64,000 nt of DNA from Geosiphon pyriformis uo1. Lineage: Eukaryota > Fungi > Glomeromycota. The stretch is taken from positions 1-64,000 of the forward strand of contig JAAOMT010000057.1 of assembly GCA_016748015.1 (NCBI GenBank), given 5' to 3'. The position numbers and the translations under genes are program-made. Below are positions 3,863-52,737 of the stretch, piece after piece (position 1 is the stretch's first letter; every line of letters begins with the position of its first letter). The notes beneath the pieces are model-generated. The model ran no database searches. It saw nothing but the letters and a program-made list of their open reading frames with translations, and was not told where the DNA came from.

Positions 3863-5234
3863 ATGTCCACTCCAAGTAAACGTAAGTTCTTCAGACTTTC
3901 AGATTTTTCTAAAGGGTTGCAGTCTCCCAATAAAAAACTCGACAGCTTCCAGCGACTAAATCAGTTTTACATTGATGCTAATCAAAACTACTGCCAGTCT
4001 ACATAGGACATCTTTCACAAAGAACAGAAAAGAGAGACCTGGAAGAGTTGGTGAGTTTCTTCTTTTACTTTATTTAGTTACACCCTTCTGTCTCCTGCTA
4101 TTATATCGTAAAAAAAATTAACCCAATGTTTTTTTTGCAAATTTATAGTTTGAAAGATATGGTAAAGTTATTAGTGTTGATGTCAAGCCAATGGGTTATG
4201 CATTTGTTGAATTCGAGGTTAGTGTTATTTATCGATACCAATTTTAGGACTTTATGCCCTCTTGTATTTAATATTCGAGTATAATATAAATGATGATAGG
4301 ACCCGCGAGATGCCGATGATGCTGTAAAACAGTTAAATGGTTATGAGCTAGATGGAGCTCGAATCGCTGTAGAATGGTCTCGCCGCTCTGGAGGTCCTGG
4401 TAGCGGTTGTTTTCTGTGTGCAGGGCAAGGTCATTGGGCGAGAGAATGTCCTGAAGCCAGAGAAAAGGGAATGGATGTCAGAAGTGGGCGATGTTTCCGA
4501 TGTGGTGAGATAGGACATTTAGCGAAATATTGCAGGTAATAATTTTACACATAAATAATTTACTGTATGTTATGGTTCTTTTTTCATCGATTATTCATTA
4601 TTCCTGAACCACTTTTTACAGAGGAGAAGGTGATTATGATCGTCGTGTTTCTTCTGGTAGTCGCTATGGCCGAGGCCGTTCTCCTCATCATGGCCGTAGT
4701 AGCTATTATGATGATTATAGCGACCGTGACCGCTATGCTCGTCGTTATTCTAGATCTCCCCAAACCTATGGCTCCTACAGCGCATCTGGCCAAAGGAATC
4801 GATCAAGGAGTCCCTATTATAGTGGCAAACGGAGCCCGAGTCCTTATGTATATGATAACACCTATTCAAGCAAGAGGAGTCCTAGTCCGTATGGGTATGT
4901 TAATTCTGGGTTCGTCTATTTAAGTGATTACTTTCATTCCCGGTTACTTTTTTCTTCCCGAACTTTTTTATTTTTTGTTTCTTTTCTTTCCTGGAAACCC
5001 TTGTTCTGGATGCCAAGGAGACCTTCATTTTGATGTGGCTCTTGGGCTTGGGAGGCAACTCAGGCGCGGAATCTGTTTCGGAGGCTGTGCTAACCGTCTT
5101 TTTGGCGGCTTGCATGGCTATTTGTTAAACAGCTTATTGCTCACCAATTCTTTTTTGCTCTTTTGTGTTACCCGTCACTGGATAAAATTCCATTCTGTCC
5201 GGACCAATATAATCATAGGCGAAAAAGATATTAG
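3863..5234 (+). CDS. SR-type splicing factor with RRM, two CCHC zinc knuckles and an RS/SP-rich tail (SRSF7/RS2Z-like); the last exon is inferred
   Basis: RRM exons [17 protein letters not shown] / [15 protein letters not shown] / [19 protein letters not shown]. Knuckles [14 protein letters not shown] and [14 protein letters not shown], then an RS-rich exon. Proposed intron 4895-5218 gives the ending ..SPSPYGRKRY*. Confidence 0.85.
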
Positions 5235-6139
5235 GCTGCTGCTGGAGAGGCAAACAAATAGGAACCCTTTTACTGACGAATCTTCTATAACGGATACCTT
5301 GGAAGGGCCAGTATGAAATGGCAAATGACTGGCCATTGAAAAATGGATTACCGGGAAAATTATTGGGCGATGGGATTTTTACCGGAGAAAAAAGAAAATA
5401 GATATAATGTGGATTCCCTGTTTTTATTCATCTTATCCTTTTTGGGCTGGAGTTTTATGAACTGGATTAATGAGAACAGGAGCTAACTTCTTGGGAACAG
5501 GAATTCAATTAATTTTGCAAGGAAACTTGAATCAAGTATGTTTCTTGAATGGAGACCTACTCTTAGTGCTATCACCTAACTGTTAATCGTTGGAACTCCA
5601 TTCCTTGGTAATGTTCAGTCAATTGAACCTTTTTGGTACAACTGAATAAACCATACCAAGCCATGGGGATTTGATAAGGTTGTCTGGAAGTATTCAATGG
5701 TATTTGAATTTTTGAAATTAGAATTAAACCAATGAAAATCCAGCATTACCTTTTCAAATTTATTGGTAAATTGATTTTTAAAGAATGAATGCCATTTTTT
5801 AAAAGTTATTAACATTCAATGCAGAATGGAAATTTTACATCAAGTTCAAATTTGTTTACAAAGTCATATATTAAATATTTGATTTTATAAACACTCCAAA
5901 ATGAAAATACAAAATTTTGTCCATGTAGAATATCTTGAAATAATGTTCACTTGGATATCAATCCGCGAATTATCTGTTGTTAAAATAATCTATATATTGT
6001 CTAATTTGACATATCATCAGTGCAAAACATCTATTAAAAACAATATATAATTGGCCTTCCGAAAGTTCTTTTTCAAAGGCAAATTGTCGTCTTTGGAACA
6101 GGTAGTCATAATATTATTTATCTAAATACAATCAAACTC

Positions 6140-7995
6140 TTATTCCAATCCGAATATATGATATGCTAACTGCACTGTGGCAAATATGATCTAAAGAAAT
6201 GACGTGTTATGGATGAACTAATCCTGAAAAGCGATAAAGATTAATTAAATCCTATGAAAACTTACTGGTTGCCAAACGACCAAATAACGAACTCCATCAA
6301 GCAAACTGAGGTAAAGTTGTTGTTGAGTGTCCCATCTTTATTAATTAAAGTAGTTATGATTAAAAAATAAATTCAAATTTGGCATTTAAATGCATAGTCG
6401 AAACTCACGGATTTGTTTTAAATTCTTTCATGTCAACCTTCTCCTTACTGGATCAACATGAGGATAAATATGAAGTTTTATGTTAAAATGATACTCAAAA
6501 GGAGAACAAAATTTTATAACTATACCAATATGGACAGATATCCTTTTTTCCAATGAGACACCACCCACGTATACACTCCTCATGAAATACATGGCGACAT
6601 GTTAATTGATGAACTTTGTCGTGTTCCCGATTTTCCGTTGTCCCACCACATACTGCACAAATAACCACGCGAAGGTGTTTTCTAGGAAAGCCATCTTTAT
6701 TATAATACCCAAGTGTCGATGCCATTCTGTCTGTACAAATCTCAACAAAATCTCGACTCAATACTCTAAAAATAATATAAAACATAATTTTAATAAATTT
6801 GGAAATTTAAAGGCCAACACTTTAATGAAATACCCGACCATTTACCCAAAATATAATCCATATGATAAAAGAATGATTCCTAAATCTGCTACCTCAGAGA
6901 AATCATAAAACAATTGCACAATTCCGAAAAAGGTGAGCATAATAATGGCATAGCCGGTCACACCTACGGCATAACACAATTTATAAACAATTGAAAACCA
7001 ATTGTAAACGAGTCTAGAAATATAAAAAAAAATTGTATTAAAAAAAATTTTGTTGAATAAAATAAATGTATCTGACCTTGGTGTCTTATGATCTAGAGGC
7101 TTTCTTGATGCAAGATAAATGACTAATTTTGGAGGTAACAGAAGTAATTTATTATATTTTTCAACATGTTGGAATTTTTTAAGAATTTAAAATTTTATTC
7201 ACTTACCCCGGAAGTTTGCAATAGAATATAAACACCAAATAGAAAGAAATCTCCAGAATTGTGCTTGAATACCAAAGATATACATGGGTATTAACCTGAA
7301 TAATAATCAGCGAAATCTTTTTTGAATTTGAATCTCATTCACATTATGATATTTCCACTGATGGATATCTATTCTAATCGAGACAAAAAACTGATTTAAA
7401 TGCCAGAAATTCAATCATCGTTCCTGACGCAGCTGGCATACACATAAGCACCGCGCACGCACCCAATATAAAGTAGGTCGACTTCGTCGCAGTTCTTGAC
7501 CAAGGTTCATTTCGTGGGGAATCCTTCTAGAAATAATCTGAGAAAAGTTCCGGGTATCTCAGGGTTCAAGAAAAGGAATCCATGTGCATCAGGAACGATG
7601 TTGTTGATCCAAGTACGATACGAGAAATTCTCAATTTAAATATTCATATTTACAGACCATAAGCCGATCAAAGTAACTGCCTGAAAGGATCGATAGTGCT
7701 TTTGCTTCCAAAACAAAATGACAAACTGAAATCCAAAAAGAGCTATCAATAAAATTAAAGCCATTGTACTATGTTGTGTTTCGTGTCCTGCGTGACTCTG
7801 TGCGAATTTTTCTTGTGGACTTGAACTAATAATAAAGAACAAAAGAAATTTAACTATTTTGACGGAGATTCGAGTTTGGTAAAAGAAATTAAAATCAGAC
7901 CTTCCGATCGGTACAAAAGTTGAATTGGGCATAGTTGGAGTAGATTCAGGCCCTAATGAAGCAAGTGTCCCATTCTCAAGAGTTCCTTCTGTCAT
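6140..7995 (-). CDS. RNF121/RNF175-like multi-pass membrane RING-H2 E3 ligase, multi-exon
   Basis: Motifs HAGHETQH, WKQKHYRSFQ, RKPLDHKTPRLVYNWF, YGLYFGVLSRDFVEICTDRMA and RING CAVC..CRHVFHEECIRGWCLIGKKDICPY. The gene ends ..AYHIFGLE*. Confidence 0.88.
7400..7610 (-). ncRNA. Candidate structured RNA element in intron 7657-7296 of the RNF121-like gene (unassigned)
   Basis: A 16-bp closing stem (7585-7600 with 7416-7431) encloses several nested hairpins. The segment is GC/CpG-rich relative to the other introns. Confidence 0.45.
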
Positions 7996-8426: not shown

Positions 8427-9690
8427 ATGAGTACTCGTTGGGGTGGCACTCCAAAGTGTCCGCGTTGTCAAAACTCAGTCTACATGGCTGAACAGGTATT
8501 GCTTTTACCATTTGAATTTCTTCTTTTCTGTTTCTTTAATTCACCCGACAAATCTTAAATTTCTAGGTAATTGGTCCTAATGGTCCTTGGCACAAATCCT
8601 GTCTAACATGTATTGTAAGGATTTTGATATTCAACACGTTTCGTATGATTTAATTCTTATTATTTCCCTGAAAAGCTTACCTTTTTCATAATGTTCTCAA
8701 CACGACAATCTAGGATTGTAAGAAACGCTTAGACTCTTTTACTTTAGCTGAACACGAAGGAGAGGCAAGTGTTTTAAATTTTGAGCCTGTTGCAAATTTC
8801 AAATGACCTAATCTAATTGCAACCGTCAATTCAATTTAATGATAGGCCTATTGTAAAACTTGTCATGGACGTCGATTTGGCCCCAAAGGTAGAAAAATAT
8901 TATTTGATATATTAAATTCTTACTTTTTAATACAGCATGGCCTAATCAAGAATTTCACTTTTCATATTTAGGTTATGGTTTTGCTTCTGGTACCTCTTTT
9001 CTGAATACCGAGCGGCCGATTGGTAAACCAACTAAAGATGAATTCAGTGGGTCGCTGAGATCATCTACTGATGAGACAATTGGGCAATCACCTCCCACCT
9101 CTCCTACCCCCATGTCTCCATCTTATGGCTTTTTCAGTAGCCGATCTCAATCACAAAAAAATGGAGTAGCCCGACGTTGGAGCCTTCCAGTTAATCATGA
9201 CATATGTCCTCGTTGTTCGAAGGCAGTCTATGCAGCTGAAGCGGTATTGTTCATTTTGCTTTAAGACGATAATTTATTTCAATCATCTACTCACGCCTGA
9301 AGTAAATTGCAATCCCCTTATCCAAAAGGTTTTAGGTGCCGGGGTAAAATATCATAAATTATGTTTGCGTTGTATCCAATGCAACAAACTTTTGGATTCT
9401 ACTAACATGACCGACCGTGATGGCAAAATTTATTGTCGTGCTTGTTACTCAAGAGAATTTGGCCCAAAGGTGAGCTTTGAATATTAGCGAAATTTTCAAT
9501 ATTTAAAACTTTAGCTATGTCTAGATTTTGATTTTTTATATTTTTTGTATTTGTTCTCGAATCCTTTAGGGTTATGGATATGGTGGAGGTTAGTAAAAAA
9601 GTTTTACTTGTTTTCTGCCCATGATAATTTGATTTATTGGAATTATTTTTAGGTGCTGCATTCTTAACAACTGAAGGGACTGCCAGATAA
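8427..9690 (+). CDS. Two-LIM-domain cysteine/glycine-rich protein (CRP/CSRP-like), 8 exons
   Basis: CPRCQNSVYMAEQ..WHKSCLTCIDC..YCKTCHGRRFGPKGYGF, then a second LIM CPRC..YHKLCLRCIQC..YCRACYSREFGPKGYGYGG. Stop TAA at 9688-9690. Confidence 0.92.
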
Positions 9691-27449: not shown

Positions 27450-28700
27450 TTGTTTTTTCTCTTTTTATAATGTACCATATAATTGAATGGTAAAAGTTCT
27501 ATTTTCTATTTGACATGGCAATCATCTGCAAATTTTTGTTTCTGGATTGAAGTCAATCCTTTGTGATCCATATATATTTCAAACTTTTGGCTCAAGTATT
27601 CTCTCTATTTGATAACAGCCCAATAGATTGCTAAGTGTTCCAGTGCTGGAGTTCCATAGTTCTTTTTTGCTGGGCTTAAATTTCTACTGGCATAAGTTAC
27701 TGGATGCTCTTTTCCATTGGGTCTTTTCTGTGATAGTACTACTCCCAATGCTTAACCTGATGCATTGGTGGTAATTATGAATGGTTTGCTGTGATCTGAA
27801 TACATTAATATTGGAGCTTGGATAAGCTTTTTTCTTAATGTGTCAAATGCTTCTTGTTGAGCTTTGATCCATTCATACTTCACATTTTTGGTCTGTAGAT
27901 GGTGAAGTGGCTGAGCCAGTTTTGAAAAGTCTTTGATAAAATGGCAATAATAGTCTGTAAAATCTAAAAATACTCTTAGTTCTGTCAAGTTGATTGGTAC
28001 CAGAAAGTTCTTAACTACTTCAATCTTGTCTGGATTTATTTTAATTCCATTTTTGCTCACTACATGTCCCAAAAACTTGAGTTCAGTTTTTTCAAAGAAA
28101 CATTTGGTTGCATTTAGTTTTAATTCTGCTCTTCTCAACCTTTCGAATACTTGTTGGAAATAATGTAAATGATTATCAAATGTTTTTGAAAACACATTGG
28201 TGTTATCCAAGTATACAACTACTGATTTCCATAATAATTCAGTATAGACAATTTTCATGAGTTATTGGAATGTTGCTGGAGCATTTATCAAGCCAAATGG
28301 CATGACTTCAAACTCAAAATTTCCTTCTCTTGTGGTGAATACTATTTTTTCTTTGTTAGCTGGATCCATGGCTACTTGCCAGTAACCACTATCTAAGTCC
28401 AGTATTAAGAACCATTTATTTCCTCCAAAAGCATCGAATAGTTTTTGGATCTTTGGAGTTGGATAGCTATCACCTTTTGTTACTCCATTCAGTTTCCGAT
28501 AGTCTACACAAAAATGGATTTTTTTATTTTTCTTATGGACCAGTACTACTGGTGACAACCATGGACTTATTGATGGCTGAATTAGCCTATTGTTAAGCAT
28601 TCAGTTGATTTCTTAATGAATGATTTTATGGCTAGCAGGTAGTACTCTGTATGCTCTTTGTTTAATTGGCATTGTATTTCCAGTCTTGATCTGATGCTAG
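27450..28700 (-). pseudogene. Gypsy reverse transcriptase and RNase H (decayed)
   Basis: PSISPWLSPVVLVHKK, LDLDSGYWQV, VYLDN, KFLGHVVS, FIITTNASG and EHLAIYWAV. Confidence 0.9.
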
Positions 28701-50601: not shown

Positions 50602-52269
50602 TCACGATAAAGAGTCGTCTAAATATGATAGATAGTAAAATAAATATTATTGATCAATTGCACATACTGTAATTATATTCTCAATTTTGTTCAAGTTCTT
50701 ACCTTCAGGCAAATATATTAATTCTTTTATAATCAACATAAATTTTTAATATTAATATATACTGTATAATAATTGAATCAATCAATTAATTACTTTTAAA
50801 TTAAATTAAATAAACTAACCTTTAGAAAAATCAACTATCTGTGCAGTTAAAAGACGACTTGTATAAACTGCTTCTGGATGAATTAATGTTGTTGTTGTCG
50901 CGTCGTTCTTCAACATTCCTTTTATATAATTTTCTGATTCTAAAAACTGGCGACACACAGTTTTAGACACTTCATCTGTAGACACCTTAAAAAGATATCG
51001 CTCATGAATCCTCGAAAGTTCAAGCAACTTTTCCAGAACTTCTTCCGCAGTAGGACGATTCTTAGGATTAACATCCCAACACTTTATAATAATTTCGGCA
51101 ATTGAAGGTGGAATAAGGGGGAAGGTAATTTCAGGTCTTTGACCATTTAAAATATCCATTATAAGAAGGTGGTCATGAGAACGATCATGAAAAGGAGGTT
51201 TCCCTGTTGCTAATTCCCATAATAACATTCCTAAACTATAAATATCACCAGCGATTGTAAACTTTTCTCCTCTTAAAACTTCTGGTGGAATGTATGGAAT
51301 CACTCCAAATATTCCTTTCTTTTCCTCTGTTACTTTTCCTCTTGTTGTTGCGTCTATTATTATTGTTGTTGTTTCATGGTTTGTAGGTTGACATAATCCG
51401 AGGTCTCCAATCTCTACCCTATTAATTTCTGATTGTAGTATGTTGCCCGAGTGTAGGTCATGATGAATCATACCAGAAGAATGAATTGAATCAAGTCCTT
51501 CAGCTATAGAACGTGCGATCCATAATTTATTAGACCAACTAGTAGAATGAAAATTTGTTGATAAATATTTTCGCATGTCTCCATGTTCGGCAAACTCCAT
51601 CACAATTCCATACTCGAGCGTTTCAGCGTTTTGCGTAATCCCCCATATTGAAGAGATATAAGTTAAGTCTTTACCGTTATTATTAATAAACATAGCTCTT
51701 TGAATATTTAACTATCAACACAGTTTAAAAAAGTAAATAGATAATATACAGTAAATAAATAAATAAATAATAGGTAAATATGAATTAAATATAAATATAA
51801 ATAATAATACATTATTTACCTCTTTAAACACTTCTGAACTGTTCGTTAGAATAATTTTTATAGCTACTTCTGTTCCTTTCAATCTTTCATATTTCATTGA
51901 ACCATAATGTTTTATAGTCCACGTATCAATTAATCCATCAATTAGGGTTGCTTTATAAATTATACCGAACCCTCCTTTAGCAATTTCCTTGATATTCGAA
52001 AAACGCTCCCATGGAATCCATTCATAGTAATTCAATCTAGCATATTCATTATTATTATTATTAGGTGGAATATAGATTGGATTCTTAATGATTTCATCAA
52101 CTACTTTATTGCCGCTTGAAAAGTTCTGGTAAAGTTTTTGAAAAAATATGAATTGGCATGCCGTACATGAATTCCCTTTATTATTATTTTGAATACTTTC
52201 TTGACACAGTTTACATTTGTTACAATCATGAGCATATTGACGATGTCTATTAATTTCTTTGTTTTCCAT
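50602..52269 (-). CDS. Tyrosine-kinase-like (TKL) protein kinase; intron 51819-51712, probably two short 3' exons after ~50820
   Basis: YEWIPWERFSNIKEIAKGGFGIIYKA, VAIK, HHDLHSGNIL, IGDLGL, GVIPYIPPE, DIYSLGMLLWE, CWDVNPKNRPT and the tail HPEAVYTSRLL. The frames are open. Confidence 0.85.
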
Positions 52270-52737
52270 GATGTGAATAAAGGACAAAGAATAAAATATG
52301 AATAGGTTATTATTCGAAGAGGGTTTCTTTTAAAAAGTTTATTTGATAGTACATTTAGAAATGAACAAATTTAATTAAGTAGCTATATTACACGTCAAAC
52401 AAGTTTCCTAAATGAGCTAGTCAATTTATTTATAAAAAACAAGAAGGCTTCATCAAATATATAAAAAACCTTATTTCGGATTGAAGTTATGGTTTAAATG
52501 ATAATTTTTTTTGTTATTATAAAACTTTATTAATAACCACTTTTCATTTCATGTCTTTGACTTAACTTTAAATGCTTCAACCATAAACTTTCGAATTTCT
52601 TTTTTAAAAAACCAAGTGTTTTTAAAATTTCAAACTGGTTTTATTATCAGTATTTTTTTGTTTTATAATATATATAAATAACTATTAATTATGGTGCTTG
52701 AATAATTTTATGAAATAAAATAAACTTGATAATTATA

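What the first reader, a model, noticed from the sequence alone, without database searches (positions are those of the whole stretch)
7385..7612. Unassigned multi-stem RNA structure inside an oversized intron of the RNF121-like gene
Seen: this intron (7657-7296, ~360 nt) is several times longer than the gene's other introns and is CpG-rich. On the gene's sense (minus) strand, CAUCGUUCCUGAUGCA (7600-7585) pairs with UGCGUCAGGAACGAUG (7431-7416). The single non-Watson-Crick pair is U-G on that strand but C-A on the other, which favours a sense RNA. Inside are a long arm GGAUUCCUUUUCUUGAA/UUCUAGAAGGAUUCC capped by CUGAGA/UCUCAG, and hairpins CGAC-GAA-GUCG and ACCUA..UGGGU. Just 3' of the stem come an Sm-site-like AAUUUCUGG (7411-7403) and a U6 run (7390-7385). 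A 7-bp AUGCCAG/CUGGCAU pairing (7439-7433 with 7406-7400) straddles the closing stem, giving a pseudoknot or alternative fold. Inference: an intron-encoded snRNA/snoRNA-like RNA or a splicing-regulatory switch that I cannot assign to a known family.
Basis: partly seen in the sequence, partly recalled or inferred. Interest (0 to 1): 0.75.

Follow-up and report, generated by a model that had tools for sequence, protein, structure and literature searches.

The report
Intron stem hiding a nested intron
An unusually long intron of a fungal ubiquitin-ligase gene holds one very strong predicted RNA stem that encloses the start of a second, smaller intron seen spliced in one RNA contig; the stem likely steers splicing toward the protein-making route and is probably not a separate small RNA.

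Summary
The window is Geosiphon pyriformis. Intron 2 of its RNF121-like gene (7657-7296, 362 nt, against 63-84 nt for six others) is confirmed by spliced contigs in two runs. The 16-bp closing stem is real. It is the strongest of 1,584 helices in the window (-26.4 vs next -20.3 kcal/mol), and 0 of 1000 shuffles match it. The rest is weak: the enclosed region folds at z = -1.0, the Sm-like 9-mer is at chance, and the 7-bp pseudoknot has zero predicted probability. Its donor lies inside the stem, it carries the stem's 3' arm, and the U6 run is its pyrimidine tract. Rfam, TPP-riboswitch, copy-number and prokaryote/virus searches were negative. The intron is short in two Mortierellaceae-like loci. 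No Glomeromycotina orthologue was reachable, so covariation is untested. Best reading: a cis loop-out stem favouring productive splicing (0.45). Rivals: neutral inverted-repeat relic (0.30), unknown intronic RNA (0.15).

The parts
7296..7657 (-). Intron 2 of the RNF121-like gene, 362 nt, GT..AG, phase 2 (TG|G of the Trp in GLW|LIP)
   Evidence: Skipped by contigs of X2 and X3; ends refined
7658..7825 (-). Exon 2 of the RNF121-like gene
   Evidence: Spliced contigs; 100% identical to P0001
7207..7295 (-). Exon 3 of the RNF121-like gene
   Evidence: Spliced contigs
7585..7600 (-). 5' arm of the 16-bp closing helix
   Evidence: strongest helix in the window
7416..7431 (-). 3' arm of the closing helix; lies inside the nested intron
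   Evidence: removed in X2 contig
7518..7581 (-). Predicted long arm with apical CUGAGA/UCUCAG stem; holds candidate acceptors ending at 7538 (paired) and 7527 (partly paired)
   Evidence: z -1.67 alone; use of these acceptors not observed
7461..7478 (-). Predicted hairpin ACCUA/UGGGU covering the GU of the nested donor
   Evidence: Pair probability about 0.7
7436..7460 (-).
   Evidence: Pair probability 0.85-0.98; folds only on the sense strand
7374..7462 (-). Nested 89-nt GT..AG intron (donor GG|GUGCGU, acceptor UUAG|AAU)
   Evidence: One 215-nt contig of run X2 joins 7463 to 7373, with 126 and 88 nt on the two sides; not seen in X3
7385..7390 (-). U6 run, read as the pyrimidine tract of the nested acceptor
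   Evidence: 11-16 nt upstream of the used AG; runs of 5-9 U sit at the same place in 3 of the 6 other introns
7403..7411 (-). AAUUUCUGG ('Sm-like'); chance-level; overlaps a candidate branch region of the nested intron (7415-7410)
7306..7311 (-). Likely branch point of the outer intron (GCUGAU, 6 of 6 to RYURAY)
   Evidence: consensus from PMC6616335; not mapped experimentally

Best explanation
A 16-bp helix predicted to form inside intron 2 of the pre-mRNA likely loops out about 185 nt that hold a competing splice donor, and so would favour removal of the whole 362-nt intron as one unit. SHOWN: the outer intron is spliced (two runs); an inner 89-nt GT-AG intron can be spliced (one contig); that product, and use of the internal acceptors at 7538, 7527 or 7374 with the outer donor, would put a stop codon at or just after Trp88. 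PREDICTED: the helix forms, hides the inner donor (unpaired probability 0.06) and leaves 57 + 120 nt of intron outside it. INFERRED: when the helix fails to form, the inner donor and the acceptor at 7374 are used, which deletes the helix's 3' arm. The product then either finishes splicing as a 273-nt intron or stays as a truncated, probably NMD-sensitive RNA. Whether the balance is regulated is unknown.
For: Helix far beyond chance and better on the transcribed strand. The nested junction has GT-AG ends, a donor matching GURWGY at 5 of 6 like the outer donor (consensus from PMC6616335), a pyrimidine tract, a length close to the gene's other introns, and only 1 nt of ambiguity. The inner donor is paired in the fold, and forcing it open costs about 10 kcal/mol. 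Before the 3' arm is transcribed, the 5' arm is predicted to pair elsewhere, which leaves a window for the inner splice. One contig only in the DNA run at >=80% identity, and CpG intact, unlike the transposon zones. Precedent: long-range pairing brings a distal donor near the acceptor and restores the ORF in Neurospora NCU01977 (PMC3597705).
Against: No conservation or covariation was shown. The same intron in two Mortierellaceae-like loci is 133 and 97 nt with no similarity, and it is absent in an Umbelopsis-like locus. The nested splice rests on 1 contig in 1 of 2 spliced runs; the contig ends 10 nt into exon 3 and may be one amplified molecule. Hiding of the inner donor comes mostly from two local hairpins, and it stays paired when the long helix is blocked (unpaired 0.11), so the long helix may not control it. 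Even looped out, the intron is about 177 nt, twice its neighbours. The acceptor at 7374 lies outside the helix.
Confidence: 0.45

Rival explanations
1. A neutral, lineage-specific insertion with terminal inverted repeats (orphan MITE-like or template-switch relic) enlarged the intron; the nested splice is cryptic noise.
For: All folding significance comes from one inverted repeat; the inside is unremarkable. The intron is 4-5 times its neighbours and richer in GC. No counterpart in 3 of 3 Mucoromycota loci that cover this position. The window is rich in decayed retroelements.
Against: 1 contig laid on the intron from the whole DNA run at >=80% (that run may be the window's source and a filter drops some records). 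No second copy in the 64-kb window. Only a 2-nt AA repeat flanks the symmetric boundary. CpG is not depleted, unlike transposon zones. The helix's one non-Watson-Crick pair and the 7460-7436 hairpin work only on the transcribed strand.
Confidence: 0.3
2. An intron-hosted, stable non-coding RNA of about 190-215 nt of an undescribed family, closed by the 16-bp helix.
For: GC-rich, CpG-intact core with a terminal helix and AT-rich flanks, the layout of intron-hosted RNAs. A published covariation screen of fungal RNAs was limited to Ascomycota (PMC8216456), so a Glomeromycotina-only RNA could be missing from Rfam.
Against: No Rfam match at E<=10 beyond 4 chance hits of 9.6-17.1 bits, all far below gathering scores. 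Sm-like motif at chance. The U6 run and 3' arm are removed by a canonical splice in one contig. Inner fold not significant. No canonical C box or hallmark spliceosomal snRNA motif by eye (motifs recalled).
Confidence: 0.15
3. A ligand- or protein-sensing splicing switch, possibly a decayed or rewired TPP-aptamer-like domain, toggles between the outer and inner donor as in Neurospora NCU01977.
For: Similar layout: second intron, distal productive donor, proximal unproductive donor, long-range helix. 7562-7545 reads CUGAGA-U-ACCC-GG-AACUU, close to part of the Rfam TPP consensus printed. An alternative partner for the 5' arm is predicted.
Against: No TPP hit in Rfam scans at E<=10, whereas the E. 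coli control scored 71 bits. A profile of 3 E. coli TPP aptamers gave 6 hits at E<=1000 in the window, none in the intron (small and imperfectly aligned profile). The 5' strand of P2 and the conserved P4/P5 junction letters of the consensus are missing by eye. An E3-ligase gene has no known thiamine link (my knowledge). The alternative folds are about 15-16 kcal/mol less stable.
Confidence: 0.06
4. A compact telomerase RNA, with the closing helix as core-enclosing stem and UGAACCCUGA as template for a TTCAGGG repeat.
For: A 10-nt stretch at about 7568-7559 fits 1.4 copies of such a repeat (sequence). A search for telomerase RNA with Mucoromycota found 1 paper, and the passages read name none for this group.
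Against: Rhizophagus irregularis telomeres are TTAGGG (PMC10234402), and no template for that repeat is present. Part of the putative template is paired at p>0.94. No convincing pseudoknot. No tandem TTCAGGG or TTAGGG in the window.
Confidence: 0.02

Closest known systems
Long-range intronic pairing in Neurospora crassa NCU01977 (Li and Breaker 2013, PMC3597705; abstract and section 18 read)
   Same: Large second intron between coding exons; a long-range helix brings the distal donor near the acceptor; proximal donors compete with it.
   Different: There the helix is switched by a TPP aptamer and is conserved in many fungi. Here no aptamer is detected, conservation is unshown, and the inner donor was seen with its own inner acceptor.
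Nested U2 introns / complex intervening sequences of fungi (PMC6616335, passages read)
   Same: A short canonical intron lies inside a longer one and can be, but need not be, removed first.
   Different: Not a stwintron: the inner intron does not interrupt the donor, branch point or acceptor of the outer intron.
Structure-concealed splice signals with poison exons, e.g. SF3B3 (PMC11162794, abstract read)
   Same: An intronic structure is predicted to hide a splice signal whose use would introduce a premature stop.
   Different: Those are conserved and experimentally validated, and hide branch sites. Here the hidden signal is mainly a donor, and nothing is validated.
MITE / non-autonomous DNA transposon (my knowledge)
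   Same: About 185-bp segment bounded by a 16-19-bp inverted repeat.
   Different: No further copy detected, no clear target-site duplication, CpG not depleted.

Membership tests
Sm-class spliceosomal snRNA (U1, U2, U4, U5, U11, U12, U4atac) | Match to the family covariance model | tested here: not met
   No hit at E<=10 on 2001 nt and on 362 nt, none at gathering score in 64 kb; these models find minor snRNAs in Rhizophagus (PMC10639083)
Sm-class spliceosomal snRNA (U1, U2, U4, U5, U11, U12, U4atac) | Single-stranded Sm site between stems | tested here: inconclusive
   AAUUUCUGG present but at chance frequency, unpaired probability 0.42, and spliced out in one contig
Sm-class spliceosomal snRNA (U1, U2, U4, U5, U11, U12, U4atac) | Stable TMG-capped, Sm-bound transcript | not testable with these tools
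   Only assembled contigs available
Box C/D snoRNA | C box inside the 5' end and D box inside the 3' end of a terminal stem | tested here: not met
   By eye, motifs recalled: no canonical C box; no D box before the 3' arm; best Rfam C/D hits 16-17 bits on the wrong strand
Box H/ACA snoRNA | Hairpin-H box-hairpin-ACA layout | tested here: not met
   Fold is one enclosed multiloop; no H box after the stem by eye; no Rfam hit
TPP riboswitch (RF00059) | Match to the model with P1-P5 in order | tested here: not met
   negative; positive control; P2 5' strand absent by eye
TPP riboswitch (RF00059) | TPP binding | not testable with these tools
   Needs in-line probing
Stwintron | Inner intron interrupts donor, branch point or acceptor of the outer intron | tested here: not met
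   Inner intron 7462-7374 lies 195 nt after the outer donor and 63 nt before the likely outer branch point
Nested U2 intron (non-obligate) | Canonical short intron inside a longer intron, seen spliced | tested here: met
   One contig in run X2; single observation
Nested U2 intron (non-obligate) | Intermediate goes on to mature mRNA | not testable with these tools
   Needs long reads of nascent RNA or lariat mapping
MITE | Terminal inverted repeats | tested here: met
   16-bp inverted repeat, 15 of 16 Watson-Crick
MITE | Target-site duplication | tested here: inconclusive
   Only a 2-nt AA at the symmetric boundary; two 3-nt repeats at asymmetric boundaries
MITE | Many dispersed copies | tested here: not met
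   1 contig laid from DNA run X1 at >=80%; none elsewhere in the window; no assembly available for BLAST
Splicing-controlling long-range intronic helix | Helix beyond chance, enclosing or bridging used splice sites | tested here: met
   (predicted fold)
Splicing-controlling long-range intronic helix | Covariation across species | tested here: inconclusive
   No Glomeromycotina DNA found; absent in distant relatives
Splicing-controlling long-range intronic helix | Disruption and compensatory rescue of splicing | not testable with these tools
   Bench test
Telomerase RNA | Single-stranded template for the organism's telomere repeat | tested here: inconclusive
   No TTAGGG template; Geosiphon repeat not found in the papers read

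The most novel reading that the evidence does not exclude
A Glomeromycotina-specific, regulated RNA splicing switch of an undescribed class sits in intron 2 of RNF121. A sensor domain closed by the 16-bp helix would choose between the productive outer splice and a self-deleting nested splice that removes the helix's own 3' arm and truncates the E3 ligase at Trp88.
Probability: 0.12. Interest if true: 0.7.

Novelty: new member of a known kind. Interest (0 to 1): 0.3.

Why it matters
If the best reading holds, it is one more case of a long-range helix helping a short-intron fungus splice an oversized intron, here in a symbiotic early-diverging lineage that at least one covariation screen did not cover. 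That is modest. It would matter more if the nested splice were regulated or conserved across arbuscular mycorrhizal fungi, because it would then be a structure-based control on a conserved RING E3 ligase and a candidate new eukaryotic RNA switch. The practical result is that the features read as snRNA hallmarks (Sm-like motif, U run) have a plainer explanation as the 3' end of a nested intron.

Tried and rejected
Whole-genome copy search: no assembly is held for this window; the DNA run's contigs were used instead.

Orthologues: a metagenome scan with exon-2 patterns from Glomeromycotina gave 232 pattern matches, 0 confirmed. A second scan with whole proteins gave 9 loci of 155 matches, none Glomeromycotina by best stored protein: 3 Mortierellaceae-like, 1 Umbelopsis-like, 5 closer to animal-type proteins. 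Its patterns lay near the C-terminus, so short contigs covering only exons 3-4 and the intron's 3' end would have been missed; no scan aimed at those exons was run. Of the 9 loci, 3 fungal ones cover the intron position (L003, L004, L007). L001, L002 and L006 are uninterrupted there but distant; L005, L008 and L009 do not cover it. The only BLAST hit of note was a 15-nt AT-rich match in L009, away from the gene, taken as chance. Viral contigs: 0 of 45.

Foreign origin: a two-arm pattern gave 0 hits in GTDB genomes and viral contigs; blastn gave none in plasmids or phages at E<=1.

Known RNAs: Rfam, ARAGORN and a TPP profile were negative. The bacterial promoter/terminator scan is not relevant to a fungus.

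Expression: the run search listed no holder on record as RNA; X2 and X3 are read as cDNA because their contigs skip seven GT-AG introns. No X2 or X3 contig covers the unspliced stem region in full, which says nothing either way about a stable small RNA. X4 laid nothing. Contig depths (40 vs 165) cannot give isoform levels.

Reverse-transcriptase template switch as the cause of the nested junction: possible (ATTGG/ATTAG near-repeat) but disfavoured by the GT-AG ends, tract and length. The inverted-repeat list was swamped by AT-rich pairs and was replaced. Longest stop-free frame in the intron is 55 codons; no protein search was run with it. Earlier scan findings: six look-ups, nothing.

Full report
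Setting. Exon 2 of the gene is 100% identical to a Geosiphon pyriformis protein, P0001 (321 aa), with a RING domain and 43% identity to a bird RNF121. No assembly is held. Contigs of runs X2 and X3 skip seven GT-AG introns and so are read as cDNA, although the tool labels them as uncertain. They fix intron 2 at 7657-7296 (362 nt). The six other confirmed introns are 63-84 nt; a further 3' intron was not measured.

What is really there. The closing helix 7600-7585/7431-7416 is the one strong signal. It is the most stable of 1,584 contiguous helices in the window, by 6 kcal/mol, and 0 of 1000 shuffles of the intron equal it. The 228-nt region folds at z -3.47 on the sense strand and -2.01 on the other, but 2 of 174 tiles of the first 20 kb reach that z (12 shuffles each). 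Without the helix the interior is ordinary (z -1.03; parts). The Sm-like 9-mer is at chance (2 found, 1.62 expected). The 7-bp 'pseudoknot' is not populated in the nested-structure model, and such helices arise in 24% of shuffles. The window has 373 runs of six or more T or A. CpG obs/exp is 1.16, against 0.70-0.77 in the rest of the gene region and 0.06-0.22 in two transposon zones.

New observation. One 215-nt contig of X2 runs 7588-7463, skips 89 nt and continues 7373-7286. The skipped piece begins GUGCGU, ends UUAG and has the U6 run 11-16 nt before the AG: an ordinary short intron nested in the long one. It contains the 3' arm of the helix and the Sm-like motif. It was not seen in X3, and it may stand for one amplified molecule. 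It remains mostly paired if the long helix is blocked, which limits how much the helix alone explains. The nested-spliced RNA reads a stop six codons after Trp88, and joining exon 2 to the acceptors at 7538, 7527 or 7374 makes TG|A, an immediate stop. The likely outer branch point (7311-7306) is predicted paired, but with changing partners (one helix only p about 0.16), so I do not claim it is concealed.

Relatives. No Glomeromycotina DNA was reachable. In two Mortierellaceae-like loci the intron is at the same codon but is 133 and 97 nt with no similarity; an Umbelopsis-like locus lacks it. The element is therefore restricted to Glomeromycotina or to Geosiphon, and covariation, the decisive test, is not done. 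The DNA run X1, which may be the window's own source, lays one contig on the intron at >=80% identity, against a multicopy MITE. No symmetric target-site duplication of 3 nt or more was found. No match was found in prokaryote genomes, viral contigs, plasmids or phages.

Known families. Rfam gives only chance hits. An 18-nt stretch resembles part of the TPP consensus printed, but the model does not hit, a three-sequence profile does not rank the site, and one strand of P2 is missing by eye. A telomerase template would need a TTCAGGG repeat, while Rhizophagus has TTAGGG. Hallmark motifs of snRNAs and snoRNAs were checked by eye from recall, not by a call.

Mechanism. Most likely (0.45) the helix is a cis loop-out that shortens the intron to about 57 + 120 nt and, with the two hairpins, suppresses a competing donor; the nested splice is the alternative route. 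This works like the long-range pairing in Neurospora NCU01977 without its aptamer, and is a non-obligate nested intron rather than a stwintron. A neutral inverted-repeat insertion with cryptic splicing (0.30) explains nearly the same data. An unknown intron-hosted RNA (0.15), a sensing switch (0.06) and telomerase RNA (0.02) follow.

Literature seen. PMC3597705: abstract and section 18. PMC11162794: abstract and outline. Passages only: PMC6616335, PMC10639083, PMC7367187, PMC10234402, PMC12449055, bioRxiv 10.64898/2026.01.14.699541, PMC8216456, PMC5640933. No supplements were read; motif lists there could bear on novelty. Nine searches (listings only for the rest) showed no description of a structured element in an RNF121 intron. 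The library lacks most subscription papers.

Verdict. Real helix, over-read surroundings, one useful new fact (the nested intron). New member of a known kind; interest 0.3, with a 0.12 chance of a regulated switch that would deserve about 0.7.

Noticed in passing
window 7368-7296 (-): Five nt after the nested acceptor, directly behind another AG, stands ATATCCAT, the only RTATCC in the 2-kb gene region (37 in the window, both strands). TTCGCTGAT, 7 of 9 to a recalled minor-intron branch consensus, lies 10 nt before the outer acceptor. It could be a degenerate 73-nt U12-like unit abutting the nested intron, or chance; the X2 contig retains it.
   Followed up: partly
window 6408-6336 (-): This phase-2 intron after AATCC appears to be the position of the U12-type RNF121 intron listed for rat and opossum (PMC7367187); here it starts GTGAGT, i.e. 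U2-type. The position match is inferred from the flanking letters.
   Followed up: partly
window 8076-8068 (-): A perfect TTCCTTAAC (recalled U12 branch consensus) in the 5' leader of the gene, which the spliced contigs cover without a gap.
   Followed up: no
window 3863-5400 (+): Neighbouring gene looks like an SR-type splicing factor (RRM-like start, zinc-knuckle-like CCHC motifs, RS repeats; by eye; no Pfam hit for the RS part). Tiles at 4333 and 4561 fold at z about -3.4, and a GC-richer stretch follows the stop at about 5000-5350.
   Followed up: no
window 5701-6156: AT-rich region between the convergent 3' ends of the two genes has the two lowest z tiles (-3.9, -3.5) of the 20-kb scan (12 shuffles each).
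   Followed up: no
window 8431-8476: GC-rich hairpin-like stretch upstream of the gene (tile z -2.7; weak top hit of the TPP profile at E 0.48); probably chance.
   Followed up: no
proteins P0002, P0007, P0008, P0019, P0023, P0003, P0005: Several Glomeromycotina gene models break or skip at or near the exon 2/3 junction, which may hint that this intron is awkward in other species too, or only reflect poor annotation.
   Followed up: no
window 11000-64000: Mostly decayed, CpG-depleted retroelement-like ORFs, with an RT/RNase H match at 27755-28261 and one tyrosine-kinase-like gene at about 50815-52329.
   Followed up: partly
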